DNA from: Minisyncoccota bacterium
Lineage (GTDB): Bacteria; Patescibacteriota; Minisyncoccia; Phycocordibacterales; JABAAK01
DNA length: 64,000 bases
Assembly (NCBI GenBank): GCA_965222235.1
Contig: OZ244939.1
Span: 323,396 to 387,395 of the forward strand
Reading direction: 5' to 3'
Positions within the stretch are counted from its first letter, which is position 1. Each line of letters begins with the position of its first letter. Under the pieces are notes generated by a model. The model was not told where the DNA came from. It saw nothing but the letters and a program-made list of their open reading frames with translations, and ran no database searches. This document shows, one piece after another, positions 24,200 through 54,820 of the stretch. The position numbers were made by a program, and so were the translations under genes.

Positions 24200-24311
24200 G
24201 TTCTGGCGACGAGCTACTCTCCCGCATAAGCAGTACCATCGCCCCTGGAGGACTTAACTTCCGTATTCGGAATGAGAACGGGTGTGACCCCTCCGGTTTC
24301 ATCACCAGAAC
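24200..24311 (-). rRNA. rrf: 5S ribosomal RNA
   Basis: Reverse complement reads GTTCTGGTGATG...CCGTTCTCATTCCGAATACGGAAGTTAAG...GGGAGAGTAGCTCGTCGCCAGAAC. Helix I pairs. Ends are within 3 nt. Confidence 0.8.
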
Positions 24312-24384
24312 AAAAAGGCGGAATATATTTTCCGCATAATATCTATTGCAATAACCATGGGCAATTCTAACGAAACAGAACGCC

Positions 24385-27358
<2,974 letters not shown>

Positions 27359-27599: not shown

Positions 27600-28679
27600 C
27601 TACCCCGTCCGGAATATGATGACATCACCGTCCTGCACGATATAGTCCTTCCCCTCCAGCCGTAACAGACCGGCGGACCGGGCATCGGTATAGGAGCCGG
27701 CACTGAGCAGATCCTCATGGGAGATAACCTCGGCACGGATAAAATTTTTCTCAAAATCGGTATGAATAGCTCGGGCGGCTCTCGGTGCTGTTGAGCCTGC
27801 CGGCACTGTCCAGGCACGGGTTTCTTTTTCGCCGGTGGTAAAAAAGGATATGAGGCCGAGCGTGCAGTATGCGGAACGGATAATATCGTCAACACCGCCG
27901 TCACCGTGAGAAAGCGCTTCTCTGAGCTCACGTGACTCTTTCGAACCCAGATGCGAAAGCTCCTCCTCGGTCTGCACGGCGACGATGACAACCTCGGAGC
28001 CCGTTCGTTTCGCGCATTCCCGCACCTGCTCAACATCCCGCTCGTCATACCGGATACCGATATTGCAGACATAGAGCATCGGCTTGACGGTGAGCAGGCC
28101 GAGTCCGTTTAAATACTGTTTCTCGTCATCAGCAAGCGGCAACGTTGCGGCGGGATGTCCCGAAGCGATTTCCGTGCGCACATTTTTCAGCAGCTTCTGC
28201 TCCGCCGCCGCATTTTCACCCCGCTTCATCTCCTTGTCAACCTTTTCCAGGCGACGTTCAACGATCTGTATATCGGCAAGCAGCAGTTCCGTTTCAATCA
28301 CCTCAATATCTCGGAGCGGATTCACTCCTCCGTCCACATGCAGCACATCCTCGTCAATAAAGCAGCGTACCATATGCACAATCGCGTTGACTTCGCGGAT
28401 ATGCGAGAGAAACGCGTTGCCGAGACCCTCGCCTTTTGACGCACCGCGTACCAAACCGGCAATATCCACGAATTCGAGGGCGGCGGGAACGGTGTTCTGT
28501 GACCGCGAAAACTCGGTAAGCTGTTTAAGCCGTCCGTCCGGCACCTCAACGACACCGACCGACGGATCAATGGTGCAGAACGGAAAGTTTTTCGCCGGCA
28601 CGCCTTTCTTCGTAAGCGCGTTAAATAGTGTGCTTTTCCCTGTGTTCGGCAGACCTACAATCCCCAATGTTATATTCAT
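27600..28679 (-). CDS. ychF: Ribosome-binding ATPase YchF (Obg-family GTPase)
   Basis: [24 protein letters not shown]-loop, [18 protein letters not shown]3/G4 region and a C-terminal TGS domain. ATG at 28679. Confidence 0.85.
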
Positions 28680-29265: not shown

Positions 29266-29781
29266 CTATAAATGTTGCGGCTTAATATACTGACGGAAAA
29301 GTATGAACACCACCTGAAATGCGACAAATAAGAGCAGGTACCACAGTATCGGCGTGACAATGCTTGTGAGGATGAAACTCAGCGAGAATGTATGATACGC
29401 GGCAAGGAAATACCAGCCGGCCGCTATGCCCGGCGCGCCGTATGGAACCGGTATGCGTCCATGCGCCATACCGTACGCTATACCACCGTTAAAGAAGAGT
29501 ATCGCCGCCTTAATGCCGTATTCAACCTGGGCAGTGAGAGAGCCGTCAAGCACACCGAATATGAAAAGGGAGAGCGCCACCAGTATTGCCAGAAATATGT
29601 GAAGTACCCGTATGAGAGTGTATATCCAGTGAATGAAGATGTTGCCGAAACCCTCTCTCGGATAGCCGTATTTCAGGGAGAGCGCATATGAAAGCACAGC
29701 AATCGTTGAGGCGCCGAGCAGTATGCTGACGATGGTGCTTTCAATAAATATAAGAAGAGTGAACGGTACATCCATACGCAA
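29266..29781 (-). CDS. Multi-pass membrane protein (171 aa), hypothetical
   Basis: At least four predicted TM helices. Directly upstream of the flavodoxin-like gene. Confidence 0.5.
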   Translation of the reverse strand: MRMDVPFTLLIFIESTIVSILLGASTIAVLSYALSLKYGYPREGFGNIFIHWIYTLIRVLHIFLAILVALSLFIFGVLDGSLTAQVEYGIKAAILFFNGGIAYGMAHGRIPVPYGAPGIAAGWYFLAAYHTFSLSFILTSIVTPILWYLLLFVAFQVVFILFRQYIKPQHL

Positions 29782-30029: not shown

Positions 30030-30092
30030 ATATATTGAGTATACCATATACAGTATGCGACAGAACACAGCGGTGGTATACTGGAGGCATTG

Positions 30093-30166
30093 GGGCCCGT
30101 AGCTCAGTTGGCTAGAGCGCCGGTTTTGCACTCCGGAGGTCGCAGGTTCAAATCCTGTCGGGTCCA
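30093..30166 (+). tRNA. tRNA-Ala (anticodon UGC)
   Basis: Full cloverleaf: acceptor GGGCCCG/CGGGTCC with the G3:U70 Ala identity pair, D-arm GCTC/GAGC, anticodon loop TTTGCAC, T-loop TTCAAAT and discriminator A. No encoded CCA. Confidence 0.9.
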
Positions 30167-30592
30167 CTCTACAGTACAAATAGGTACACCCTCCCTGTCG
30201 GTCGGATGTGACTTGTTCGTGGTGCGTCGTTTCGGCACGTCATAGGGGGCTTTCCAGCCGTTTCTCGGTTTTTCATCTCTCACAGAGTTAAATATTTAGT
30301 ACTTTAATTTATACTTCCATACCTATTTGCAAAGAATAAATAAAGCACCCCACCAGCGCAACCATAGAGTAAAGCCCTATGAACTGATGGGGTGCTTCAA
30401 AAACTTTACCTATACCTATGGTTGCTTTTATAGTATATGATAAAAACACTTTTTGTGCATTCAAATTTAATTTTTTGTAGACAGGTTTCTTTTGTCATCA
30501 TCTTTTTGCTATACTATCAATAGCAACCAAAAGTATCGCCCGACTATCATATGGGAATATCCCATATTGTTAGTAAGATAATTAGGTGGAAT

Positions 30593-31162
30593 ATGGCGAT
30601 AAAAAAACATAAAACACATTTTGTATTTGCAAAAAAAGACATCAATAAATTAGTAGAAAAATATGATGTCGGAATGATTGAAGATAAGGATGCTGAAATC
30701 CTAACTGTTTTTTTTATTAGAAGTGGGAAAAGATCAAAGATACAGAAAGAAAATATAAAATCTTTTGAAATAAGCAATACTGGTGATGAATTTCCAAAAA
30801 AAATCTGTAATGTCTGTCATAAATTATTTAAAACTTCTCATTTTGAAAAAAATCAAAATGCAAAAAATAACAGAACTGTCAGAAGACCCTCTTGCAGAGA
30901 TTGTAGAAAAAATATTGATGGGGTACAAGTTAACATTAAAATAAGAAAAAAAATCTTAAAAACAAAACCTCATAAAATTCCATTTGAATGCCCCATCTGT
31001 CACAAAAGAACTATTGCAGGTGTCACTAGTAAAGTGGTGATTGACCATGACCATAAAACAGGAAAAATACGTGGGTGGATTTGTGATAGTTGTAATACGG
31101 GAATAGGAAGATTTAAGGATAATGTAGAAATTTTAAAGAGAGCCATCAGGTTTATCAAATAA
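30593..31162 (+). CDS. HNH-type (T4 endonuclease VII-like) nuclease with two Cys4 zinc sites; candidate type II restriction endonuclease
   Basis: AGGTGG ribosome-binding site then ATG 30593. CNVCHK...CRDCRKN zinc ribbon, then CPICHKR...VIDHDHKTGKIRGWICDSCNTGIGRF (Endonuclease_7/HNH signature DHDH...G.RG.LC..CN). Very AT-rich. Convergent with and overlapping the MTase. Confidence 0.6.
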   Translation: MAIKKHKTHFVFAKKDINKLVEKYDVGMIEDKDAEILTVFFIRSGKRSKIQKENIKSFEISNTGDEFPKKICNVCHKLFKTSHFEKNQNAKNNRTVRRPSCRDCRKNIDGVQVNIKIRKKILKTKPHKIPFECPICHKRTIAGVTSKVVIDHDHKTGKIRGWICDSCNTGIGRFKDNVEILKRAIRFIK

Positions 31163-31993
31163 AGATATATTCAACGTAAGGTGTTTGATTCTTTCCACTG
31201 CAATATCAACATATTTCTGTGAAATATCACAACCAAGATACAGACGATTATTTTTTTGCGCCATTTTACAAGTTGTTCCTGATCCACACATTGGATCAAA
31301 AACCAAATCCCCTTTATTGGTCCAAGAAAGAATATGATCCTCAGCTAACTTTTCTGGAAAAACTGCTGGGTGCTCAAAGGCAATCTTATCACTTGTTGAT
31401 CCATGCAACCCAACTGCATATTCCCATATGTTTGTTCTTGTCTTTTTATTTTTTAACATTTTTAGTGTTTTTTTGTTTATACCATCCGGACCTTTGTTGT
31501 GGGTAAGCATCTCTAAACCCTGCCTAACAGTATCTACTTCAATAGGATTAAATGTTGTCGGTTTCCCCTTACTTAACACAAACATAAATTCAAAACAATT
31601 TGTGTATCCATTAGAACGCATAAACGGTGTATTTTTCTTTTTATACACCATCACATCATGCACATTAAACCCAATTTCTTGAAATGTTATTGCCTGTTTA
31701 AAACTTGTGAGGCTCTTGTTTCCATTTTTCACTTTATCACCAACAACCCAAACAAGTACTCCCCCTTCTTTTGTTATTCTAAACAATTCAGGTACCATGG
31801 ATTCAAAATCAAAACGATACCCCTCATAGTTTCTTAATTCATCATAAGGAGGTGAAGTAACTGTTAAATCAATAAAACAATCTGGAAAATCTTTCATTAC
31901 CTCCATGGCATTGCCACACAAAATACTGTTTACTGGTGATTTATTGCTGTTGGTTGTCACCCTTTTTACAGGCATTTTTACTAAATCGCTCAT
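31133..31993 (-). CDS. Beta-class N4-cytosine or N6-adenine DNA methyltransferase
   Basis: Motif IV TSPPYDEL precedes motif I FDPMCGSGTT (beta permutation, N6_N4_Mtase family). 286 aa. Confidence 0.8.
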   Translation of the reverse strand: MSDLVKMPVKRVTTNSNKSPVNSILCGNAMEVMKDFPDCFIDLTVTSPPYDELRNYEGYRFDFESMVPELFRITKEGGVLVWVVGDKVKNGNKSLTSFKQAITFQEIGFNVHDVMVYKKKNTPFMRSNGYTNCFEFMFVLSKGKPTTFNPIEVDTVRQGLEMLTHNKGPDGINKKTLKMLKNKKTRTNIWEYAVGLHGSTSDKIAFEHPAVFPEKLAEDHILSWTNKGDLVFDPMCGSGTTCKMAQKNNRLYLGCDISQKYVDIAVERIKHLTLNISLFDKPDGSL

Positions 31994-32151
31994 ATGTTCA
32001 GTATACCTAATTAGAACACATCCATACTGGGTTATCTACAAAAATCATTTAATATATTAAATTAACCTTATTACAATAAGCTCATATATAAAGATACAAA
32101 ATATCTAAATATATACAATATCCTGTATACAAGTGTATTAATTTTCTATTT

Positions 32152-32682
32152 TCATAATTTTTCCCTGATCTTAGATTTCAGGAAAATTAATTGTGATGAT
32201 GATGTATAAAATTTCCGGGATATATCGTAAAGAAGCAGAGGAATGACAACAAAAGAAAACAAAATCAAAAGATTCATATACTCAAAATTAAATAAGAAAG
32301 CGACAAGTAGAACGAAGTACAAAATGATAATAAAAAACAGATGGGATATCATAAATGGAACGAAAATATCAAAAGCCTTATCTTTTTCTTTAACCATTTC
32401 CTTCCCCTTTTTATCTACTATTTCCCACAACGAAGCAAAAAACTCACTGGAAGACATACGCTGATTCATAAAAAATCCTATGAAGATAATGTATACAGAA
32501 AACACAAGGAAAAACAGAGAAAAAATATCACTCGTCTCAATGAAATCAAAATTTAATTCAACAAAGAAAAATTTGTCAAGCAGAAAAACAATAAAAACCA
32601 GTGCCGATGTAAAATATAGTTGACGCTTTGCGGTAACCCAAAAATTTATAACTAATTGCATCAGAGTTATGTTTTCTTGCAT
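32152..32682 (-). CDS. Hypothetical four-helix membrane protein in the AT-rich islet
   Basis: Alternative starts at 32745 or 32730. Hydrophobic helices LVFIVFLLDKFFFV, IFSLFFLVFSVYIIFIGFF, HLFFIIILYFVLLVAFLF and LLILFSFVVIPLLLY. No recognisable domain. Confidence 0.5.
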   Translation of the reverse strand: MQENITLMQLVINFWVTAKRQLYFTSALVFIVFLLDKFFFVELNFDFIETSDIFSLFFLVFSVYIIFIGFFMNQRMSSSEFFASLWEIVDKKGKEMVKEKDKAFDIFVPFMISHLFFIIILYFVLLVAFLFNFEYMNLLILFSFVVIPLLLYDISRKFYTSSSQLIFLKSKIREKL

Positions 32683-32907
32683 GCCACCATTATACCACCT
32701 ATATGCGTAAAGCGTACGAATAAATTGCATCGTCTTTAGAAGCACGCAGTGCCGACCTTACGCGGATGCGTCGCCGCCAGTGTAAGAAACACGGTACGCC
32801 ACACAGCGACAGGCGTGTCAATACGCCAACGCAGTCAGTATATCGCCTTCAGAACTGCACAATCTTATTAACGCAACCTTGGATAACCTATGTACATTAT
32901 ATTGTTA

Positions 32908-33468
32908 CTAAAGAGCAACAGATATTGATATATGTGTATTTCTCTGCAGAAGAGTTAAGTCAGCCCTCTTATTTAATTCCCTTAACAAATTCTCCAAAAA
33001 ATACAAATGGTACGGTGCAAGTATGTCAGAGTTGGAGATGTCCATTTTTTCATTATACTTAAATTTTACCACAACATCTTCACATTTAGACAATATTTTT
33101 TTAAGGTTTTCTTCTGGAAAATTTCCTGCTCCGGCATCTTTTCTGGCTTTACACAAAGTTTCAAAACCTTTTTTTCTATGCTCATCATCATGAAAGATAT
33201 CTTGAATATATATTTTTGTCTCATCATTCAAGTTTTCAAAGAACTCTAATGTATTGTGATTATGCTCAGCTTTTTTATCATTTTCAATCATCCAAAACAT
33301 TTTCATAATTAACTCAAGACAAATAGTATTAAGAAGAATTTGTGTTAAAAAATAGTGAGTGGGACCTGTATCTGGGTCTACTACCATTCCCAAAACTTTA
33401 GAAGATCTTAAAAAGCTATCAGCACGATATGAGAATCTCTGTATCTGACTTTTTACTTCATTATTCAT
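32908..33468 (-). CDS. Hypothetical soluble protein (186 aa) in the AT-rich islet
   Basis: ATG at 33468; the upstream extension into the GC-rich region is rejected. Lys/Glu/Asn-rich. No recognisable domain. Confidence 0.5.
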   Translation of the reverse strand: MNNEVKSQIQRFSYRADSFLRSSKVLGMVVDPDTGPTHYFLTQILLNTICLELIMKMFWMIENDKKAEHNHNTLEFFENLNDETKIYIQDIFHDDEHRKKGFETLCKARKDAGAGNFPEENLKKILSKCEDVVVKFKYNEKMDISNSDILAPYHLYFLENLLRELNKRADLTLLQRNTHISISVAL

Positions 33469-33784
33469 ACAAGAAACAATAACAAATGAAAAGTATAAAA
33501 GCAAATATCTGAATGAGCGGAGCGAATACGGGCCCGTAGTGAAGCGGAGCGGCATTTGGCGGCACGCTTCGTAAAGTTCTGGTGTTGGTTGCAGCGTGCG
33601 GGTAGGTGGCGACACGGTTTTGGTCAGAGTACTGAGCGGGTCAAAGGGTGCGCTGTCGTCAAAATATTCTTTCAGTTTCCGTGCTATGGTTTGCGTATGG
33701 GGCTCTGAAGTCCACCAGACAGTACAATAATTGTTATCACAGCGGTACTCGCGGAAGCAGTGTTAATTGGGGTATTTCTATTAT

Positions 33785-36031
33785 CTATTCTTCATTCTTT
33801 TTGTCTGGGCGTAGGTTAATTCTTTCAATTTCTCTCAGATTTCTCAGATTGTTTGCCTTAATTGCCGATGGTGAAATGGTGTAAAGTACATTGTCCATAT
33901 ACAACGAACGATCTATGGTAAACAAATGAGAATAATTGTATGTATAGTCGTCCTCTTTTGATTCCCTTTCAAAGTGTGTTATCCTCCCCCGCTCTTTAAT
34001 GCCGGAGGGAGAGATGGTGAACACGAGCGCGCCGATCCATTGTGTATCATGCTGTATGTCGCGCGACATGGCGCGCTTTTCCTCAACGAGTGTCACGGGC
34101 AGCACCAGCAGTTCCCTTTCTTTGTCAAACAGGAATGCCCGGTGGTCGTGGATAACGCTTGTGCTTGTTCCGCGCGCGCCGATTTCGTACGATGCTTTCT
34201 CCTTCGGATTGTGCACATCGGAGACATCAAATAGCGAAACTTTCACGCCTTTGAACGATACCCATCTACTGTTGTCAGTGGTCGACCTGCCGACACCGAT
34301 GAGATAGTTCGCGTCATACGGATGCAGGTAGTCGGAAACGCCGGGTATTTTCAGTTCTCCCAGCACCTGCGGATTGGTTGGGTCGGAAAGATCTATCACA
34401 AACAACGGATCAACCTGCACGAAGGTCACCATATACAGCCGGTCGCCAATGAAACGGGTGGAATAAATACGCTCGCCTTTCGCAAGATCTTCCAGTGAGC
34501 CGACGGTCTTCATATTTTTATCCAGCACAAAGAGATGATTGAGGGACTTGTTTCCGCCGTGCGTCGTGGTTGCAATTCTAAAATATCCATTGTACTCATC
34601 CATAGAAAATTGATTGAGCGGCCTACCGACAACCTCCCCTTTGGAGACATACTGTATCGCACCATTGTTCACCCCTATCTTGTGCACAATGGTTTTTTGC
34701 CGTTCTTTATCATGCTTTCGTCTGATGTCCTCTGCTTCCTCCTCAAAACCGCTGAGAATAGTTGCGGCGGTTTCAGGGTTAATAGAACTGATCCATTCTT
34801 CAAGAATCCCCCCAATTGTTACATATTTCAACTCAATCTCATGAACTGTTTCATCCTCGTGTGATATGGAATCCCTGATCTTTTGTATTTCGGCTTTGGT
34901 GGCATTGGGAAGCTTCGGCAAAAGTATATTCAGCGAATCATCAAGCAACTCTAATTCGCTATATTGATTTTCATACTGGTAATTGATATAGAGGTTATCG
35001 CGGGACATAAAAAGATTTGAGGAGTGCCCGAGTAGGAATACTTTATTACGCACGGTGCCGTCGGTGATGCGGAGGGAAACAATATTGGTGAAGACATACG
35101 ACCGACCGGACGATCCGAAGTGATGTATCTCCGGGAAGTCCCGCTGTCGCGGAGAGAATTGCGGCATTCTCACGCCATCGTCAAAAAAACGTACGGGGGT
35201 CTGCGCAACCATATACACATACTCGCCGATCATTCGTGAATTGTTGTATTGCCCGTCAAACAGGAGATTGTGTTGCAACACCGGGTGTGCCCGATTCGTT
35301 ATGTTGTAAACAAGAATTCTTGTTTTTTCGCCGTCATTGTTACTTGTCGGTATGAATATAACGGCTGTGTTATCGTTAATGTACAATTCATTCGGATTCC
35401 AATGCCCGCCGAATTCACTGAGCGATGTGGTAGAAACAATCTCAGCGTTATATGGCGGGAATGCATCCACAATTACCAATCTTTTTTCATTTAAAAGGTA
35501 GATGTATTTTCCGTCATTTTTGATGAAGTCCGCTTCATCAACACCTGCCACCTGAATGTTCGTCGTTGAATAATCGTCGGCTAGGTCTTGAACCGCCGCA
35601 CCGACGGACACCTGTGCCGTATCAAGAGTTATTCCAGCTGAGGTTGTCAGCGACTCTACGCGCGACACCGAAGAAACCCGCTTCTGATACGTTTGGTCAT
35701 GCAAATACTGCGATTGACTTTCCCACAGGAATGCCTCCAGCTCTTTTTGTGAGGAGAAAGTTTGCAGGGTATTCTCTTTCCATTTTTTTTGACTAACATC
35801 CTCACTGTCTTTCGGAACGTCTTTCAGCGACTCTGCGGGTGCCGTATCATTTGGAGCCGGTGCCTCGGTCGGTATTTTCTCCGGTGTTTCTTTTTGTGTT
35901 GCTGTATCGGATGTTTTCTCATCCCCGTTATTGTAAGTATCTGATGTTTTCAGGATGTCCAGAGCACTATATAGCAGCACTATCCCGATTATTATTATAA
36001 ACAAGACAAAAAAGGGGGACATCTTTTTCAT
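33785..36031 (-). CDS. Signal-anchored secreted beta-propeller-domain protein (about 750 aa)
   Basis: N-terminal anchor MKKMSPFFVLFIIIIGIVLLYSAL and a Thr/Pro/Glu-rich linker. The C-terminal 500 aa has repeated YxxGDxLY/V-type blades resembling the archaeal/CPR 'beta_propel' family. Confidence 0.5.
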   Translation of the reverse strand: MKKMSPFFVLFIIIIGIVLLYSALDILKTSDTYNNGDEKTSDTATQKETPEKIPTEAPAPNDTAPAESLKDVPKDSEDVSQKKWKENTLQTFSSQKELEAFLWESQSQYLHDQTYQKRVSSVSRVESLTTSAGITLDTAQVSVGAAVQDLADDYSTTNIQVAGVDEADFIKNDGKYIYLLNEKRLVIVDAFPPYNAEIVSTTSLSEFGGHWNPNELYINDNTAVIFIPTSNNDGEKTRILVYNITNRAHPVLQHNLLFDGQYNNSRMIGEYVYMVAQTPVRFFDDGVRMPQFSPRQRDFPEIHHFGSSGRSYVFTNIVSLRITDGTVRNKVFLLGHSSNLFMSRDNLYINYQYENQYSELELLDDSLNILLPKLPNATKAEIQKIRDSISHEDETVHEIELKYVTIGGILEEWISSINPETAATILSGFEEEAEDIRRKHDKERQKTIVHKIGVNNGAIQYVSKGEVVGRPLNQFSMDEYNGYFRIATTTHGGNKSLNHLFVLDKNMKTVGSLEDLAKGERIYSTRFIGDRLYMVTFVQVDPLFVIDLSDPTNPQVLGELKIPGVSDYLHPYDANYLIGVGRSTTDNSRWVSFKGVKVSLFDVSDVHNPKEKASYEIGARGTSTSVIHDHRAFLFDKERELLVLPVTLVEEKRAMSRDIQHDTQWIGALVFTISPSGIKERGRITHFERESKEDDYTYNYSHLFTIDRSLYMDNVLYTISPSAIKANNLRNLREIERINLRPDKKNEE

Positions 36032-36090
36032 TACAGCCAGTATATCACATATTCTGCCCCAAAAACGGCGCTGTGTCATATTGAGATGCT

Positions 36091-36435
36091 ATGATGGCAT
36101 ATATGTTTGACTTCATATTCTCGAAGATGTTTGATGGAATGATGGAAACACCCGGGGGAGGTCGATCGGCGACATGGAGGTTTTTTCTTATCACCCTTTT
36201 CGGCATTCTGGTGTTGGCTGTTGTGGTTTTGCCGCTGCTTCTGCGGATAGTTGACGGTGTGCTTGCGCCGGGGTATGTGTATACCAGAACGGCATTTATC
36301 GTACTGTGGATGTTGATCGGCCTTCGGTATTTTTTGCTGTCGCTGCGGACGCGCAAGATAGGCGATGCAATTGGTGTTGTCGCCGTGTTCGGTATAACAG
36401 TCGCGGTGGTGTATGTACTCGGAAGCGCGGCATAG
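36091..36435 (+). CDS. Small three-helix membrane protein, hypothetical
   Basis: RFFLITLFGILVLAVVVLPLLL, FIVLWMLIGLRYFLL and IGVVAVFGITVAVVYVLG. Confidence 0.45.
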   Translation: MMAYMFDFIFSKMFDGMMETPGGGRSATWRFFLITLFGILVLAVVVLPLLLRIVDGVLAPGYVYTRTAFIVLWMLIGLRYFLLSLRTRKIGDAIGVVAVFGITVAVVYVLGSAA

Positions 36436-36493: not shown

Positions 36494-37456
36494 TTACCCG
36501 TACCACCGTTCGCCGATTATCGTAAATAGTGCCATCCTGATGTAGACACCGTTCGCTGCCTGTGCGAAGTAGCGGGCCCTTGGATCTGTGTCCACTTCAG
36601 TGCTTATCTCATTCAGGCGGGGCAGTGGATGAAGTATAATGGCATCCTTTTTCATTGATGACGCTATTTCCGGTGTCAGAATGTAGGTGTCTTTTGCTCG
36701 TTCGTATTCCTGCAAATTGTCAAATCGTTCTTTTTGTATTCTTGTCATGTAACAGACATCGGCATCTTTAACAGCACGGGCAAGTGAGTTAGTTTCTGTG
36801 AATCGGGTATCCTTTTCTTTCAGAAAATTTCTCAGTGAATCTTTTATTCGTGAATTGTCCGGTGAGACGAAATTGAAACTGTTTCCCGGGAAATCCGCGA
36901 GTAGGTATACAAGAGATTCCGCCGTCCGTCCGCGCAGCAGGTCGCCGACCACTACTATATGCATATTCTCAGTTCTGCCGATGTCTTCGTGTATTGTGAA
37001 GAGGTCAAGCAGTGATTGTGTCGGATGTTGATCCGTTCCGTTACCCGCGTTTATCAGTGGTATTTTTGCAGTTTGTATTGCCTCATAGATTGAATTGTTG
37101 TCCGTATGTCTGAGAACGATAAAATTGCCGTAGAAATTTGAGACGGCTATTGAATCGGTCAATGACTCTCCTTTTGCCGCGGATGACATTGTTTTCGCGT
37201 TTTCCGTTGAGATACATCGCATGTTCAATTTATGCGCCGCATTCTCAAAGGAAAATCTTGTTCTTGTTGAGGGTTCATAAAAGAGGTTTATCGCTATCTT
37301 GTCTTTCAAAAAAGAAGGAGGTGCTACCTCCTCATTTTTATATTGTTTCGCTGTTGCAAATATTTTTTGAATAAATTGTTTATCAAACTGTCTCGTATGC
37401 AATATATGCTTTCTCGGATCTGTCGTGATTATTTTTTCCTTGACCTCCTTACTCAC
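36494..37456 (-). CDS. pyrB: Aspartate carbamoyltransferase catalytic subunit
   Basis: FYEPSTRTRFSFE carbamoyl-phosphate site, HPTQSLLD and HPLPRLNEI (Asp site). GTG start. Confidence 0.8.
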   Translation of the reverse strand: MSKEVKEKIITTDPRKHILHTRQFDKQFIQKIFATAKQYKNEEVAPPSFLKDKIAINLFYEPSTRTRFSFENAAHKLNMRCISTENAKTMSSAAKGESLTDSIAVSNFYGNFIVLRHTDNNSIYEAIQTAKIPLINAGNGTDQHPTQSLLDLFTIHEDIGRTENMHIVVVGDLLRGRTAESLVYLLADFPGNSFNFVSPDNSRIKDSLRNFLKEKDTRFTETNSLARAVKDADVCYMTRIQKERFDNLQEYERAKDTYILTPEIASSMKKDAIILHPLPRLNEISTEVDTDPRARYFAQAANGVYIRMALFTIIGERWYG

Positions 37457-44300: not shown

Positions 44301-46107
44301 GAGTATCCGAAGCCACCGTGTAGACTACGGTGTAAACTCCGTTGTCGCTTGCATCCTCAATCTCCGTGTAGGCTGCGTGCTCTGCGTGGGCTCCGCTGTT
44401 TCTTGACGATACTATTTTCTTGCCCGCTATGGTAACAGTTGGTGCCGTTACGAGTTCCGCGGAGGGGACGAAGGTCAGGGCCAGAACATCTCTTTCCTTT
44501 GCAAAAACAGGGCTGGGGTTACCTGTGGTGAGGACCTCTAAAGAGAGTGAGAGGGGCTTGGCGTATACATTTCTCAATACCGCGACTCTGTTGCCTTCGT
44601 TGCCTACCATGTTTCCCGCAACATCCCTGATCTGGAAGTCAGCTCGAACGGCCGAAATTGAAGCTCTTGAGCAGTAAGCTTCATGGTCAATGAATTGGTA
44701 GTACCGGAGATAGGGACCGACTCCTCTGAAATCGGTAGATGTGATGGTGGCGGTTACAGATGCCTCTTCCTTGGTGGTTGAAAAAGAGGCGGAATTTATT
44801 GTAAGCCTGTTGCGACCCTTCTTCATTATAAATCCTCCGGTTTCATATGTATTACCTGCCGGACAGGTAGCTATTTCTGATATAGGGGTGTTCTCGGTTC
44901 CTGCCGCATCAAACCATACAGGTTCGTCGAAAGTGATCGTTATTGTTGCCGTGTCGTCATTAATGACATATTTTGCTGAGGTGATACGCGGTGGTAAGGT
45001 GTCGTCCACCAGAAGGACCTGCACTCTGACCGTTCGTGTCGTTGTGTCGATGTTCCCTGCCGCGTCTGTCGCGGTGTAGGTAATGGTGTAGTCACCTGCA
45101 GTGTCTGTGTCAACCGTTCCTGTTGGTGTGACCTCTACTCCTTCGGTAGCAGTTGCTCCCGGGTCAGTGTAGGTGTCGCCCACAGTGAGAAGGAGAGGGT
45201 TGTCTCCGGTAAGGGTGATGACCGGTGCAGTGGTGTCTATCATTATTGAATTGTCGGTTTCCTCAAATGGGTCAGCAGTGTTGTCCGCCATATCAGTGAG
45301 GATGCCGATGTTGTATGTGACTGCTCCATCGGGAGTATCCGTAGTTACCATGTAGGTTGCGGTGTAGGTGTTTCCGTTTGGGGTTACTTCAGTGCTGTTA
45401 CCCGCTATCTGCACCGTCGGGGTCTGGCTGAGGGTCTCTGAGGTCATGAAGGTGAGGGTTAGGGTGTCTCCTGCTTTTGCGTAGGCACTGTTGGCATTTG
45501 ATGAGGTGATGTCCTGTGTGATGATGGTCGGTACAGTGGCGTCTGTGGTGGTTACCTCTGCTGCTCTACGTGTTGAGACAACCTTGCCTCTTGCCATGTT
45601 TTCCGCAACATCCCTGATCTGGAAGTCAGCTTCTTCAAGTAGGTTAAAATCTCCTGAAGAACAGTAGGCTACCTGGTTAGTGAAGGGATAGTATTCAAGT
45701 CGGGGAGAGCTGGTTCCGAAACTGGCAGCTGTGATGGTGACGGTTACGGATGCTCCTTCCTCTGTGGTTGGAAGAGAGACGGAATTTATTGCAAGCCTGC
45801 GCCCTCTCACCCTCAGTTCAAATCCTCCGGTTTCCTCTGATCTACCACCCTCCGTACAGGTAAATTCTTCTGATATAAGATTATTATCGGTTTCTGCCGC
45901 ATCAAACCATACCGGTTCGTTGAAGGTGACCGTTATTGTTTCCGTGTTATCGTCATTAGTAACATATGTGGCTGCAGTGAGATACGGTCGTGTGGTGTCA
46001 CTCGTGGCAAATATGGAGGTTGTCGTCGCTATCGTTACGGTGATACATGCAAGAATAGCCGCACCTATGTACAGCCTTGTTTTTATAGTGTTTTTTGTGT
46101 TATTCAT
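41359..46107 (-). CDS. Giant secreted surface protein (about 1583 aa) built from repeated Ig-like (DUF5011-like) modules with a C-terminal PG-binding-like domain
   Basis: Signal peptide MNNTKNTIKTRLYIGAAILACITVTIATTTSIFA. At least five modules carry PVITLTG(N/D)NPLLLTVGDTYTDPGA...TDTAG.YTITYTATDAAGN. A Gly/Asp/Thr-rich linker, then LGDSSDEIRSAQKLLN...DRFGALTHRAIMCYEESKGLPITG. Confidence 0.7.
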   Translation of the reverse strand: MNNTKNTIKTRLYIGAAILACITVTIATTTSIFATSDTTRPYLTAATYVTNDDNTETITVTFNEPVWFDAAETDNNLISEEFTCTEGGRSEETGGFELRVRGRRLAINSVSLPTTEEGASVTVTITAASFGTSSPRLEYYPFTNQVAYCSSGDFNLLEEADFQIRDVAENMARGKVVSTRRAAEVTTTDATVPTIITQDITSSNANSAYAKAGDTLTLTFMTSETLSQTPTVQIAGNSTEVTPNGNTYTATYMVTTDTPDGAVTYNIGILTDMADNTADPFEETDNSIMIDTTAPVITLTGDNPLLLTVGDTYTDPGATATEGVEVTPTGTVDTDTAGDYTITYTATDAAGNIDTTTRTVRVQVLLVDDTLPPRITSAKYVINDDTATITITFDEPVWFDAAGTENTPISEIATCPAGNTYETGGFIMKKGRNRLTINSASFSTTKEEASVTATITSTDFRGVGPYLRYYQFIDHEAYCSRASISAVRADFQIRDVAGNMVGNEGNRVAVLRNVYAKPLSLSLEVLTTGNPSPVFAKERDVLALTFVPSAELVTAPTVTIAGKKIVSSRNSGAHAEHAAYTEIEDASDNGVYTVVYTVASDTPEGPVIYDIGEFTDIIGRTTNPSPVTSSIVVDTTAPVITLKGSKILFLDVGDTYTDPGATADTGETVTPTGTVDTDTAGKYTISYVADDEAGNQVREKRTVTVIEFFTDIEFTSNNLVSHQAKEGDTLTLTFTVFWADPNRIPTVQIAGNDAAVEVGEVTESGRTIYTATYMVTENTPNGEVTYDIGEISYFGNVINPSANTNTNIFVDTTPPVITLTGNNPLLLTVGDTYTDPGAASEPGVTVTASPETIDTDTAGQYTITYTATDAAGNRATKERTVTVIPVADTIAPTVSAPSFTSVLTDGYLNTEETKTSVDLIIEPVATDDGGSVTLTYALIADTAVCNDTTTGFNTDIPQTVDVPVADAAYKVCVRATDQANNNTHVTSDSFISDMVAPYLTETPTLATSNTDNAYAKEGDRLTLTFTVSETLSQAPTVQIAGNDAEVGANGNTYTATYTVTTDTPDGAVTYDIGVFTDMAENTFDPSEETDSSITIDTTAPVITLTGNNPLLLTVGDTYTDPGAASEPGVTVTASPETIDTDTAGQYTITYTATDAAGNRATKERTVTVIPVADTIAPTVSAPSFTSVLTDGYLNTEETKTSVDLIIEPVATDDGGSVTLTYALIADTAVCNDTTTGFNTDIPQTVDVPVADAAYKVCVRATDQANNNTHVTSDSFTRDTVAPLVTLNGDAVIEVEEGSSITDIDLTATANGGETVIVAGTADTSIPGTYIITYTATDAAGNTGTAEQTVEVAASPQPEQSAQPPSTPLNNQRENDGQNGENDDHTVTDDTGTDNGGSDDTADDTSNDGTGNKKKKTRGRSGGGGWSGVLATEAPSLLPEQQKDPVSFTEAPSLLPEQQKNPVSFNDITLPSIIDDVHGNIVQTYRLGDSSDEIRSAQKLLNQTVCPVATDGAGSDGEEVDRFGALTHRAIMCYEESKGLPITGVLTPELYSSLYNDYIALLKQVIFALIEIINQIIADRQTV
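41722..41815. repeat. 47-nt perfect tandem duplication inside the giant gene (TEAPSLLPEQQK[D/N]PVSF x2)
   Basis: GATACCGGA(T/A)TCTTCTGCTGTTCGGGAAGCAGCGAAGGCGCTTCCGT(A/T)AAA is repeated twice back to back. Confidence 0.7.
42282..43665. repeat. Perfect 529-bp direct repeat (42282-42810 and 43137-43665; period 855 bp) within the giant gene
   Basis: The ORF track shows identical 68-aa ORFs at 42455-42661 and 43310-43516. The nucleotide identity was checked by eye across about 529 bp. It encodes the identical 176-aa segment PVITLTGNNPLLL...THVTSDSF twice. Confidence 0.9.
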
Positions 46108-46564
46108 GGTGTTTTTGTTGGTGTCATCACGGTATATTAATTGGCAGGATTGACGCTTTTTCATACACAATATATGCTAAAACCCTGTATATACAAGGTT
46201 TTCTAATGAAAATAGAGGTATGGTTTACGGTATTCAGTGTTTCTCCTGCACGTGAAAAATTGGTAATGTCACATACATTCAACTGATGCTATAGTAGCAT
46301 ATATAGTATATTTTGTCAATAAATCATCGCCTAAGTTCAAACAAATAATAGAACACTTGTCATATATACAGCAGGTAACACTGGGAAGCATTCCTGCTTC
46401 CTCTGCGGTGAATTGTGTATACCGTCAGGCAGGAGGAAGGCGGAGCATATTGTCTCTTTTTTAAAGTATTTTTAACTTCAACGCTATGCGCAAACACCAC
46501 CTGAACAACACAAAAGCGGGGATTCTGCTTCAAATAATCGGAGCTCAACCCTGAAATTGACTAT

Positions 46565-53858: not shown

Positions 53859-54820
53859 CTTAATGGTTCAATACATTTGCACATGAGTGTACCACATCTA
53901 TGGGTTTCTTAAGGTCAATGCCGAAATGCGGTCTCTCATGGTTGTAATGATGGAGGTATTGGGCGTATTGTTCTCTGAGATCGTCATATTCTTTGAAAGG
54001 AGCCTTGTAGTAGATGAACTCCTCCTCATCAGTCCTGAACGATCGTTCAATGACGGCATTCTCGTTAGGACTTGATTTGTGAATATAGTGGTGTTTTGTA
54101 CAGAGAGCAGTTACATGGGTATGGAATCTTTTTTGAAATTCAAGACCGTTATCCGTTTGGATGAATACTGTTCTGAAGGGTAGACGGTTCACTATTTCCG
54201 TCATAGCTGAAATGGCATTATTCTGATTCAGATCATTGTATATGACGGCATCCTTGTATCGGGAGTAAATGTCTATGATGGCATACTCGAAACAGGTCCA
54301 GGGCAATCCTGTCAATTCAGGGGTGAGGTACTTCACATCCATCTGGAGGTAGCCGACGGTTTCAGCGTTCTTTGCGTGCATATGTACTGTATTCTGACAC
54401 AAGGGACGACGATGTCGCTTCTTCTGTCGTATGTAGCCACGGGCTATCAGGAACCGTTTCACCGTACTTACTGATACCGCTATACCGGTTTCCTCCCTGA
54501 GTTTCTCGGCACACCATCCCCGTTTCTGCCTCATTGCCGCAATGACTACTCTTTCCTCCCCGGAGAGTGCCGGTTCCCTCAGTCTCTTCGGTCTCGTGCT
54601 CTTCCGCTGCAGTCCCCGCATGACATACCGCGGTTCCCCGTAGGGATACGGTGACCGTGCCCGTCTCAGCCACCGGGATACCGTGGTTCTGTGGATACCG
54701 AGCAGTTCAGCAGTATGCTGTATATCTCTTGTTTCTTTGTATATTTGAATGATTTTCTTGGGATGTTGTCTCATACATCTGCAGTATCGCTGCTATGTGC
54801 AAATGTATTGAACCATTAAG
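53859..54820. mobile_element. IS481-family insertion sequence (962 bp) with 26-bp perfect terminal inverted repeats and a 6-bp target-site duplication GGTGGT
   Basis: Left inverted repeat CTTAATGGTTCAATACATTTGCACAT (53859-53884) is the exact reverse complement of the right one (54795-54820). GGTGGT sits at 53853-53858 and 54821-54826. There is a single transposase ORF. Confidence 0.8.
53860..54774 (-). CDS. IS481-family transposase (HTH plus rve/DDE integrase core)
   Basis: N-terminal HTH (ELLGIHRTTVSRWLRR) and a DDE core (...IQTDNGLEF...NAVIERSFRT...). 304 aa. The stop lies inside the left inverted repeat. Confidence 0.8.
   Translation of the reverse strand: MRQHPKKIIQIYKETRDIQHTAELLGIHRTTVSRWLRRARSPYPYGEPRYVMRGLQRKSTRPKRLREPALSGEERVVIAAMRQKRGWCAEKLREETGIAVSVSTVKRFLIARGYIRQKKRHRRPLCQNTVHMHAKNAETVGYLQMDVKYLTPELTGLPWTCFEYAIIDIYSRYKDAVIYNDLNQNNAISAMTEIVNRLPFRTVFIQTDNGLEFQKRFHTHVTALCTKHHYIHKSSPNENAVIERSFRTDEEEFIYYKAPFKEYDDLREQYAQYLHHYNHERPHFGIDLKKPIDVVHSCANVLNH

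What the first reader, a model, noticed from the sequence alone, without database searches (positions are those of the whole stretch)
30167..33784. AT-rich islet next to tRNA-Ala carrying a restriction-modification pair plus two uncharacterised genes; candidate undescribed defence-type module
The segment from just past tRNA-Ala(UGC) to about 33.5 kb is strikingly AT-rich (roughly 30% GC by eye, against about 55% for flanking genes such as gyrA and ychF). It holds four genes: an HNH/endonuclease-VII-type double-zinc nuclease (30593-31162), a convergent beta-class SPPY methyltransferase (31133-31993), a four-helix membrane protein (32152-32682) and a 186-aa soluble protein (32908-33468). Neither of the last two has a recognisable motif. 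Defence genes cluster in islands, and tRNA genes are classic integration hotspots. The membrane-plus-soluble gene pair sitting immediately beside an R-M system is therefore a reasonable candidate for an uncharacterised abortive-infection or effector module, although plain cargo of unknown function is equally possible. No integrase is present and the islet is only about 3.3 kb, so it may be a decayed island.
Basis: partly seen in the sequence, partly recalled or inferred. Interest (0 to 1): 0.65.

Follow-up and report, generated by a model that had tools for sequence, protein, structure and literature searches.

The report
Small defence islet beside tRNA-Ala
A 3.5-kb AT-rich piece of foreign DNA next to a tRNA gene carries a known type of restriction-modification system, a gene from a rare uncharacterised branch of the HEPN (toxin RNase) fold that recurs in defence islands elsewhere, and an orphan membrane protein. 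It is a modest new member of a known kind, not a new kind of system.

Summary
Two AT-rich blocks (30-31% GC against 51.9 +/- 4.8% for the rest of the window) lie just past tRNA-Ala and carry four genes at the stated coordinates. No integrase is present.

- **R-M pair:** It is an ordinary Hpy99I-type type IIP system. The REase is a full-length Hpy99I ortholog (E 1e-46) with its catalytic Asp, His and Asn and all four CXXC motifs. The MTase is beta-class with an SPPY motif, like the m4C enzyme M.Hpy99I.
- **B's relatives:** They sit beside unrelated R-M systems (DpnII-type, BglII-type), Cas12d with Cas1, a GajB-like helicase, and an OLD/AriA-like ATPase with a Panacea antitoxin gene. B is therefore most likely a defence-linked HEPN toxin/effector, although it lacks the canonical Rx4-6H motif.
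- **Membrane protein (A, 32152-32682):** It remains an orphan, and nothing ties it functionally to B.

HEPN-R-M linkage has been described since 2013.

The parts
30093..30167 (+). tRNA-Ala(UGC), the left anchor of the islet
   Evidence: ARAGORN; Rfam tRNA, 68.9 bits. The G3:U70 pair is visible in the sequence.
30162..30179 (+). Left copy of a degenerate direct repeat (GTCCACTCTACAGTACAA). It overlaps the last 5 nt of the tRNA and is a candidate attL.
   Evidence: the repeat finder family D6. With up to 3 mismatches the 18-mer occurs only twice in 64 kb, with 0.02 expected. The 18-mer was chosen post hoc, so this is suggestive only.
30168..30290 (.). S1, a host-like (51% GC) segment after the tRNA. 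It contains a terminator-like hairpin at 30256-30270 followed by a T-run.
   Evidence: GC; terminator scan (the count does not exceed that of shuffles); no excess RNA structure, z = -0.16.
30551..31162 (+). Hpy99I-type beta-beta-alpha-Me (His-Me finger) type IIP restriction endonuclease. An alternative start at 30593 has an AGGTGG Shine-Dalgarno-like sequence.
   Evidence: Pfam Endonuclease_7 5.6e-20 and His_Me_b4a2 1.2e-16. PADLOC REase_II 1e-46. PDB 3fc3 Hpy99I 1.4e-46 over the full length, with Asp148/His149/Asn165 and four CXXC motifs conserved (PMC2699513).
31133..31993 (-). Beta-class N4/N6 DNA methyltransferase (SPPY, then DPMCGSGTT), convergent with the REase and overlapping it by 30 nt. 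The predicted product is m4C.
   Evidence: Pfam N6_N4_Mtase 8.5e-43. PADLOC oMTase 1.8e-86 and MTase_II 2.8e-63. Motif order read from the translation. M.Hpy99I is a beta-class m4C enzyme for CGWCG (PMC3936762).
32152..32682 (-). Protein A: a 176-aa orphan membrane protein with about four TM segments and a charged central loop. It lies in the same AT-rich block as the R-M genes.
   Evidence: ORF; hydrophobic segments. No hit in Pfam, PADLOC, PHROGs or NCBIfam. Only itself among 5.8e9 proteins by word-seeded search. No relative in any fetched locus or viral contig. The AF2 model is unusable, pLDDT 61.
32701..32890 (.). S2, a host-like (49.5% GC) spacer between B and A. Its A-proximal end carries a -10-like motif shared with the region upstream of the tRNA.
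   Evidence: GC; inverted repeat I12. No Rfam hit. No excess structure, z = +1.0 and +0.5. Not conserved in other loci.
32908..33468 (-). Protein B: a 186-aa all-helical HEPN-fold protein from a rare uncharacterised family. Conserved positions are E52, K56, H71-N72 and [K/R]137-Y138.
33501..33784 (.). S3, a host-like (51% GC) segment between B and the beta-propeller gene.
   Evidence: GC; no excess structure, z = +0.5; no Rfam hit.
33710..33727 (+). Right copy of the degenerate direct repeat (GTCCACCAGACAGTACAA, 15 of 18 identical). Candidate attR.

Best explanation
The segment is a small, integrase-less, horizontally acquired defence islet inserted just downstream of tRNA-Ala. The host is a small-genome bacterium, probably CPR-like. 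The islet has three functional parts.

1. **A complete Hpy99I-type type IIP R-M system.** The methyltransferase is expected to protect host CGWCG sites by N4-cytosine methylation. The His-Me-finger endonuclease is expected to cut unmethylated incoming DNA.
2. **Protein B, a stand-alone HEPN-fold protein of the HEPN-T (PF05168)-like kind.** It lacks the canonical Rx4-6H histidine. It keeps the basic residue ([K/R]137) and has an invariant histidine further N-terminal (H71). Most likely it is a toxin-type RNase effector that acts as a second line of defence or as an addiction module beside the R-M system, following the PrrC-EcoprrI logic.
3. **Protein A, an orphan four-TM protein.** It arrived in the same AT-rich block as the R-M genes, and its role is unknown.

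**Shown:** the composition, gene identities, B's fold and B's neighbourhoods. **Inferred:** the R-M specificity, RNase activity of B, and any coupling between the parts.
For: **Foreign origin**
- GC and GC3 deviate by about 4 sd from the rest of the window.
- The islet abuts the tRNA 3' end.
- A degenerate direct repeat brackets it.

**R-M system**
-, together with the literature.

**B has a HEPN fold**
- The model is confident.
- The best viral hit is a HEPN protein.
- Relative P0008 passes Pfam's HEPN gathering score, and four others hit below threshold over the same region.

**B's motif pattern**
- It matches the description of HEPN-T/AF0298 in PMC3710099: the H of the motif is absent, the basic residue is kept, and a second conserved H lies N-terminal.

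**B's relatives lie in defence contexts**
- L083: N6_N4 MTase with a DpnII REase, a GajB-like helicase, AAA_15/21 fragments and a serine recombinase.
- L084: an OLD/AriA-like ATPase upstream and a Panacea antitoxin-domain gene 51 nt downstream.
- L085: Cas1 and Cas12d on one side, a BglII REase with its MTase on the other.
- The three MTases are only 25-28% identical and the REases belong to three different families, so the R-M linkage arose independently.
- Every B homolog is more AT-rich than its locus.
Against: - B itself has no Pfam, PADLOC, PHROG or NCBIfam hit.
- Foldseek against the PDB gave no significant match; the best HEPN hit had E = 1.5.
- A profile of the family finds no solved structure by sequence.
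- No arginine is conserved 4-6 residues before H71, so RNase activity is not assured. Many HEPN domains are non-catalytic binding modules.
- Only five loci give usable context. One of them (L089, Magasanikbacteria) shows no recognised defence gene.
- The window has no antitoxin-like partner: no MNT, no Panacea, and no structured or repeated RNA.
- The host shows no CGWCG avoidance, 143 sites observed against 145 expected. This neither supports nor contradicts R-M activity.
- No sister genome could be found to show an empty site.
Confidence: 0.6

Rival explanations
1. B and the membrane protein A form a two-gene abortive-infection module. A HEPN component would be coupled to a small polytopic membrane effector, as a membrane pore accessory (Csx28) is reported to couple to the HEPN RNase Cas13b.
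For: - A and B are adjacent, on the same strand, and both AT-rich.
- A B relative (P0010) is followed 35 nt downstream by a different small protein with about four TM segments, DUF6804.
- The P0017 operon also contains small TM proteins.
- In four of seven loci a co-directional gene follows B within 55 nt or less.
- The Csx28-Cas13b analogy comes from my own knowledge and was not checked here.
Against: - A has no detectable homolog anywhere, including next to B's relatives.
- A is unrelated to DUF6804.
- A and B are 225 nt apart, separated by a host-like GC spacer. Compositionally A belongs to the R-M block.
- The closest B relative (50% identity) has no membrane partner.
- The gene downstream of B is different in every locus.
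Confidence: 0.15
2. B is a non-catalytic HEPN-fold protein, acting as a binding, regulatory or antitoxin-like subunit. Alternatively it is simply neutral cargo that hitch-hikes in AT-rich mobile DNA, and its defence neighbours reflect the general clustering of mobile genes.
For: - There is no canonical Rx4-6H motif.
- PMC3710099 notes that many HEPN domains are inactive binding modules.
- The family is tiny and its context sample is small.
- One locus has no recognised defence genes.
- No antitoxin is apparent in the window.
Against: - E52, K56, H71 and [K/R]137-Y138 are strictly conserved across proteins that are only 20-50% identical. This argues for a constrained functional site.
- The same H-plus-basic-residue arrangement is proposed as an alternative active site for HEPN-T.
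- A Panacea antitoxin-domain gene lies directly downstream of one relative.
- Defence genes flank the family in four of five informative loci.
Confidence: 0.25
3. The islet is not one element. It is the result of two or more independent insertions into a native intergenic region of about 600 bp. One insertion is the R-M + A block (30291-32700) and the other is the single-gene B block (32891-33500). On this reading the co-location of B and the R-M pair is accretion at a hotspot, not a functional unit.
For: - S1, S2 and S3 have host-like GC of 0.50-0.51.
- S1 carries a terminator-like hairpin right after the tRNA.
- The end of S2 shares a 17/19 promoter-like motif with the region upstream of the tRNA.
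- B homologs elsewhere also look like single AT-rich genes set in GC-richer flanks, for example L093 at 0.25 against 0.41-0.47.
Against: - A 15/18 direct repeat brackets the whole 3.55-kb segment, including S1-S3.
- B relatives lie next to R-M systems in two further independent loci. That would not be expected from chance accretion.
- No target-site duplications were seen at the block edges.
Confidence: 0.35

Closest known systems
Hpy99I restriction-modification system of Helicobacter pylori J99 (R.Hpy99I, PDB 3fc3/3gox; M.Hpy99I, jhp0756)
   Same: - The REase aligns over its full length (E 1.4e-46).
- It has the catalytic Asp-His...Asn and both Cys4 zinc sites (PMC2699513).
- The partner is a beta-class N4/N6 MTase with SPPY, and M.Hpy99I is a beta-class m4C enzyme (PMC3936762).
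   Different: - The host is a different phylum and the DNA is very AT-rich.
- The genes converge with a 30-nt overlap.
- CGWCG specificity is inferred, not shown.
- The MTase was not compared directly with M.Hpy99I.
HEPN-T / classical HEPN (Pfam PF05168; e.g. AF0298 2hsb, TT1696 1ufb, ST0689 1wol, sacsin HEPN 3o10), including the R-M-linked members described by Anantharaman et al. 2013
   Same: - The pattern of a conserved N-terminal His plus a retained basic residue, instead of Rx4-6H, matches.
- The genes cluster with R-M operons.
   Different: - B is longer, at 186 aa with two extra helices.
- B itself falls below Pfam detection.
- No MNT partner is present.
- The family is very rare, with about 17 clusters among 15 billion proteins.
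PrrC-EcoprrI: a HEPN anticodon nuclease held in check by a type I R-M system, released when phage disables restriction
   Same: A HEPN-superfamily gene is embedded beside an R-M system. This is the logic I propose for B.
   Different: - PrrC has an ABC ATPase domain and a canonical motif, and it interacts with a type Ic enzyme.
- B is a bare HEPN domain beside type II systems.
- No interaction was tested.
AbiV (HEPN RNase toxin with an RNA antitoxin; PDB 9bj5; bioRxiv 10.1101/2024.05.05.592566)
   Same: - Both are stand-alone HEPN proteins of about 190-200 aa.
- In both families the R and H of the motif are not strictly conserved.
   Different: - No family member hits a Pfam AbiV model.
- No conserved, structured or repeated RNA lies next to B.
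PanAT toxin-antitoxin pairs (Panacea-domain antitoxins; PMC8832971, PMC10440598)
   Same: One B relative (P0008) is followed 51 nt downstream by a SocA_Panacea gene (E 1.6e-20), which places the B family in the toxin position.
   Different: The window has no Panacea gene. The pairing is seen once only.

Membership tests
Hpy99I-type type IIP R-M system | REase homologous to Hpy99I over its full length, with the beta-beta-alpha-Me catalytic Asp-His...Asn and two Cys4 zinc sites | tested here: met
   phmmer against PDB 3fc3_A gives E 1.4e-46, aligning residues 8-189 to 15-196. 'DH' aligns with D148-H149, 'CDSCN' with N165, and all four CXXC motifs are conserved (PMC2699513).
Hpy99I-type type IIP R-M system | Adjacent cognate beta-class N4-cytosine methyltransferase | tested here: met
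   N6_N4_Mtase 8.5e-43. SPPY (motif IV) precedes DPMCGSGTT (motif I) in the translation, which defines the beta class. M.Hpy99I is a beta-class m4C enzyme. The m4C product itself was not tested.
Hpy99I-type type IIP R-M system | Recognition of CGWCG and cleavage with a 5-nt stagger | not testable with these tools
   This needs an enzyme assay or methylome data. Site counts in the window are uninformative, 143 observed against 145 expected.
HEPN superfamily | Up-down alpha-helical bundle fold of HEPN domains | tested here: met
   [not shown]
HEPN superfamily | Sequence-profile match to a HEPN family model (PF05168) | tested here: inconclusive
   B itself has no hit. Relative P0008 scores 26.4 bits against a cut-off of 22. 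Four more relatives score 13-18 bits over the same region.
HEPN superfamily | Rx4-6H catalytic motif at the start of the last core helix | tested here: not met
   [K/R]137 is conserved in 14 of 15 sequences, but no His follows within 4-6 residues. The invariant His is H71, N-terminal to it. This is the variant pattern described for HEPN-T/AF0298. Spatial proximity of H71 and K137 could not be checked.
HEPN superfamily | Metal-independent RNase activity | not testable with these tools
   Needs biochemistry.
HEPN-MNT toxin-antitoxin | Adjacent minimal nucleotidyltransferase (MNT) gene | tested here: not met
   No nucleotidyltransferase domain occurs in any islet gene or in the neighbours of B homologs.
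AbiV type III TA | AbiV-family HEPN protein with an adjacent antitoxin RNA | tested here: not met
   No AbiV Pfam hit in 15 members. Flanking spacers are not conserved, not unusually structured, not repeated and have no Rfam hit. An unstructured RNA cannot be excluded.
tRNA-integrated genomic island | Insertion at the tRNA 3' end with deviant composition | tested here: met
tRNA-integrated genomic island | Flanking direct repeats that include the tRNA 3' end | tested here: inconclusive
   A 15/18 repeat lies at 30162-30179 and 33710-33727. It is the only such pair in 64 kb, with 0.02 expected. It was chosen post hoc and it encloses host-like segments.
tRNA-integrated genomic island | Integrase gene | tested here: not met
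   No integrase or recombinase domain lies within the islet or its flanks. The only transposase (rve_3) is at 53860-54774.
tRNA-integrated genomic island | Empty site in related genomes | not testable with these tools
   The best relatives of the flank gene are 40-55% identical. The near-identical Logan contigs stop short of the junction.
Catalogued anti-phage systems (PADLOC-DB v2) | A or B matches a model of a known or candidate defence protein | tested here: not met
   No PADLOC hit for A or B at E <= 0.1.

The most novel reading that the evidence does not exclude
The B family is a previously unnamed HEPN clade, largely confined to ultra-small (CPR-type) bacteria. It would work as the constant component of a two-gene defence or toxin module whose downstream partner is swapped freely. 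The partners seen are a Panacea antitoxin, DUF3800, small four-TM proteins such as A or DUF6804, and small nuclease-like proteins. The module would be recruited repeatedly beside type II R-M and CRISPR loci as a back-up, abortive-infection layer. In the window, A would be the membrane partner.
Probability: 0.2. Interest if true: 0.55.

Novelty: new member of a known kind. Interest (0 to 1): 0.35.

Why it matters
**Known parts.** The R-M pair adds nothing new.

**What B adds.** B shows that an apparently orphan gene, with no hit in Pfam, PADLOC, PHROGs or NCBIfam and none in a word-seeded search of 5.8 billion proteins, belongs to a small and strongly conserved HEPN family. That family turns up beside R-M, Cas12d, Gabija-like and OLD/Panacea genes in genomes of uncultivated, probably CPR, bacteria. 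Defence repertoires of these organisms are poorly catalogued.

**Practical value.** A compact 186-aa HEPN variant with a non-canonical catalytic pattern would be a cheap target for toxicity, RNase and phage-challenge tests. It could also be added to defence-finder model sets.

**Limits.** Linkage between HEPN genes and R-M systems has been described since 2013, so this extends a known theme and does not open a new one.

Tried and rejected
1. **Sister-genome or empty-site comparison.** Scans of genome contigs and metagenome contigs with the flanking beta-propeller gene gave at best 40-55% identity, mostly to DPANN archaea and CPR bacteria. Exact look-ups found only two short, 100%-identical Logan contigs (L001, L082) that end before the junction. 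Flank proteins at 29266-29781 and 33785-36079 were not on record.
2. **Type III (RNA antitoxin) idea for B, prompted by AbiV.** The spacers are not conserved, not structured and not repeated, and have no Rfam hit. Rejected for lack of support.
3. **Structure of A.** The single-sequence AF2 model has pLDDT 61 and pTM 0.29, so no fold search was run on it.
4. **A as a relative of DUF6804, or of any gene near B homologs.** No similarity.
5. **Locus searches with B-family alignments.** A1 was too divergent for pattern searches. A2 found nothing in the metagenomes.
6. **Viral contigs.** They hold no A or B relatives.
7. **Profile of the B family against PDB sequences.** Nothing. Nothing for P0008 either.
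8. **Harvesting bona fide PF05168 proteins from fetched loci.** The aim was a column-level profile-profile alignment, but none were found. The correspondence of E52, K56, H71 and K137 to HEPN-T positions therefore rests on Pfam match coordinates, the description in PMC3710099, and my own recollection of the PF05168 consensus.
9. **CGWCG avoidance in the host.** None.
10. **The afdb50 fold library.** It was unavailable.
11. **A 10-nt match of S3 to the tRNA 5' end (GGGCCCGTAG).** I judged this to be at chance level.

Full report
**1. Observation**

tRNA-Ala(UGC) lies at 30093-30167 on the + strand. Immediately downstream, windowed GC falls from about 50% to 25-37% and recovers near 33500.

Across the rest of the 64-kb window, 500-nt GC is 0.519 +/- 0.048 and never falls below 0.376. 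The blocks 30291-32700 and 32891-33500 are 0.310 and 0.297. The four genes have GC3 of 0.21-0.33, against 0.44-0.76 for six flanking genes.

In DNA of about 30% GC, stop codons are frequent, so open frames of 176-186 codons are very unlikely to arise by chance. This last point is my own estimate from base composition.

One correction is needed. The islet is a mosaic. Three segments of host-like composition (S1 30168-30290, S2 32701-32890, S3 33501-33784; GC 0.51, 0.50, 0.51) separate an AT-rich block that holds the REase, the MTase and A from a second AT-rich block that holds B alone.

**2. Boundaries and origin**

An 18-mer overlaps the last five bases of the tRNA (30162-30179, GTCCACTCTACAGTACAA). 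It recurs with three mismatches at 33710-33727 on the same strand. With up to three mismatches these are the only two hits in the window, with 0.02 expected by chance. The 18-mer was picked after seeing the match, so I treat it as a suggestive att-like repeat and not as proof.

Neither the islet nor its flanks contain an integrase. The only transposase lies 20 kb away.

S1 carries a terminator-like hairpin directly after the tRNA. That fits S1 being native sequence, and it fits accretion of separate AT-rich cassettes.

No sister genome could be found. The flanking beta-propeller gene has no relative above about 55% identity in 185,579 species genomes or in the JGI metagenomes. Two 100%-identical Logan contigs end before the informative junction.

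The host is bacterial. It has a bacterial 23S rRNA and GyrA, ValRS and ArgRS equivalogs. Its contig is 641 kb, and it has many large unannotated proteins with PG_binding_1 domains. A CPR-like organism is a reasonable inference but is not established.

**3. The R-M pair**

*REase.* It matches Pfam Endonuclease_7 and the Hpy99I-specific His_Me_b4a2 domain, and a PADLOC type II REase model at 1e-46. It aligns over its full length with the crystallised Hpy99I at E 1.4e-46. In that alignment the catalytic Asp148, His149 and Asn165 and all four CXXC zinc motifs defined by Sokolowska et al. (PMC2699513) are conserved.

*MTase.* It is an N6_N4 enzyme (8.5e-43). SPPY precedes the DPMCGSGTT AdoMet motif, which is the beta-class order. 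M.Hpy99I is itself a beta-class m4C enzyme acting on CGWCG (PMC3936762).

The pair is therefore a known kind of type IIP system. CGWCG specificity is inferred. The window shows no avoidance of CGWCG, with 143 sites against 145 expected.

**4. Protein B (32908-33468, minus strand)**

*Homologs.* Direct scans of Pfam, PADLOC, PHROGs and NCBIfam were negative. A word-seeded search of 5.8 billion proteins returned only B itself. An exhaustive phmmer search of 1.84 billion cluster representatives then found 14 relatives, with E from 1e-38 to 6e-4 and identity from 50% to 24%. A profile search added two more.

*Conserved positions.* The alignment has invariant E52, K56 (motif LELxIK), H71 (motif THN), L80 and L126. 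Y138 and F157 are nearly invariant, and position 137 before Y138 is K or R in 14 of 15 sequences.

The best BFVD match is an annotated phage HEPN protein with probability 1.00. Foldseek against the PDB was not significant, although its highest-probability hits were again HEPN entries.

*Sequence-level support.* Pfam's HEPN model hits five of the fifteen members. One of them (P0008) scores 26.4 bits, above the gathering score of 22.

*Active site.* The canonical Rx4-6H motif is absent. The family instead keeps a basic residue at the motif position and has an invariant His further N-terminal. Anantharaman et al. describe exactly this pattern for the HEPN-T/AF0298 group and propose it as an alternative active site. 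They also note that HEPN-T genes cluster with R-M operons (PMC3710099). I could not verify the column-level correspondence by profile-profile alignment, nor the spatial proximity of H71 and K137.

**5. Genomic company of the B family**

- **L083 (50% identity):** B, then an N6_N4 MTase, then a DpnII-type REase. Also present are a GajB-like helicase, AAA_15/21 fragments, a small gene with an RNAVAH (canonical HEPN-like) motif, and a large serine recombinase.
- **L084:** an OLD/AriA/PtuA-like ATPase, then B, then a SocA_Panacea antitoxin-domain gene after 51 nt.
- **L085:** Cas1 and Cas12d (E 2e-125), then B, then DUF3800, then a BglII-type REase with its MTase.
- **L086/L087:** B, then after 35 nt a 109-aa DUF6804 protein with about four TM segments.
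- **L089-L092 (Candidatus Magasanikbacteria, named):** B heads a tight, AT-rich operon of six unannotated small genes, about 27% GC against about 39% in the flanks.
- **L093:** B, then a GyrI-like/Cass2 gene.

The three MTases next to B-family genes are only 25-28% identical, and their REases belong to three unrelated families. The R-M linkage is therefore recurrent and independent. It is not one travelling cassette.

Every B homolog is more AT-rich than its locus. No member was found on viral contigs.

**6. Protein A (32152-32682, minus strand)**

A is a 176-aa protein with about four hydrophobic segments and a charged central loop. The evidence on it is entirely negative:
- It has no family hit in any library.
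- It finds only itself among 5.8 billion proteins.
- It has no relative in any fetched locus or viral contig.
- It is not similar to DUF6804.
- Its single-sequence model is unusable.

A lies in the same uninterrupted AT-rich block as the R-M genes, 158 nt upstream of the MTase. It is separated from B by 225 nt that include the host-like S2.

**7. Interpretation**

The best-supported reading is a small, decayed or accreted defence islet. It carries a standard Hpy99I-type R-M system and a stand-alone HEPN-T-like protein. By fold, conserved polar residues and neighbourhood, that protein is most likely a toxin-type RNase serving as a back-up or addiction function beside R-M. This is the model Anantharaman et al. 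generalised from PrrC-EcoprrI. The islet also carries an orphan membrane protein of unknown role.

- **Shown:** composition, gene identities, conservation of the REase active site, B's fold, the B family and its neighbourhoods.
- **Inferred:** CGWCG/m4C specificity, RNase activity of B, any coupling of B to the R-M system or to A, and CPR host identity.

The AbiV-style RNA-antitoxin idea was tested and found no support.

**8. Novelty and score**

The R-M pair is already known. HEPN-R-M linkage is a described theme. The B family itself is not in Pfam (as a family), PADLOC, PHROGs or NCBIfam. It appears to be a rare clade found in defence islands of uncultivated bacteria, so it is a new member of a known kind.

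Overall interest is 0.35.

Noticed in passing
window 30072-30090 (+) and 32681-32699 (- strand sense): A 19-nt motif, GGTGGTATA(C/A)TGG(A/T)GGCAT, is shared at 17 of 19 positions. One copy lies just upstream of tRNA-Ala and the other immediately upstream of A's ATG. Both contain a -10-like TATACT/TATAAT. It may be a host-type promoter, which would make A's mRNA nearly leaderless. Its significance is borderline for a 4.5-kb self-comparison.
   Followed up: partly
window 32084-32122: A 17-nt tandem repeat (ATATCTAAAGATACAAA, 2.3 copies) lies in the AT-rich gap between A's stop and the MTase start. It could be a regulatory site for the MTase promoter.
   Followed up: no
window 24201-27349 (-): The 23S and 5S rRNA genes have no 16S gene upstream; ychF follows directly at 27600. 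The rRNA operon is therefore split.
   Followed up: no
window 53860-54774 (-): An IS-type transposase (rve_3 integrase core plus HTH domains) is the only mobile-element enzyme found in the window. It lies about 20 kb from the islet.
   Followed up: no
window 33785-36079 (-): The flanking Beta_propel (PF09826) protein has its closest relatives, at only 40-44% identity, mainly in DPANN archaea (Aenigmatarchaeota, Woesearchaeota), although the host is bacterial. This may reflect inter-domain sharing of this surface protein.
   Followed up: no
L085 4053-7646 (-) and 2087-2911 (+): A Cas12d/CasY effector (PADLOC E 1.9e-125) and a Cas1 gene lie directly upstream of a B-family gene on a 364-kb metagenomic contig. 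The same contig carries an ORF annotated as 10,559 aa.
   Followed up: partly
L089 8001-11599: In a Candidatus Magasanikbacteria genome, a B-family gene heads a tight, AT-rich operon of seven genes (27% GC against 39% in the flanks). The six others are unannotated. One has a weak hit to a methyl-directed type II REase model (E 2.5e-4) and three have TM segments. It may be an uncharacterised defence operon.
   Followed up: partly
L083 8904-9335 (-): A 143-aa gene next to the closest B relative contains an RNAVAH sequence, which is a canonical Rx4H. It has weak hits to Csm6-HEPN and pEK499_p136 models. Two different HEPN-type genes therefore sit side by side there.
   Followed up: partly
L083 10529-10756: The apparent 228-nt spacer between the B relative and the MTase encodes a peptide that looks like an MTase N-terminus (…LYHGDCLDFLNKLPEESVN). 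The called MTase, which starts MIFADPPY, may therefore be N-terminally truncated by a frameshift or a miscalled start.
   Followed up: no
L001 and L082 (window 30120-33689 and about 33681-36400): Two Logan assemblies from different runs (ERR13602196, ERR13605531) carry DNA 100% identical to the window over the stretches compared. Their contigs break within a few bases of each other, near 33681-33689, just inside the right-hand repeat, and inside the tRNA. This might reflect an assembly-graph branch caused by site polymorphism, or only low coverage.
   Followed up: partly
window 37000-37400 and 45900-46300: These are the only other dips below 40% GC in the window (0.376-0.39). Both are much shallower and shorter than the islet.
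   Followed up: no
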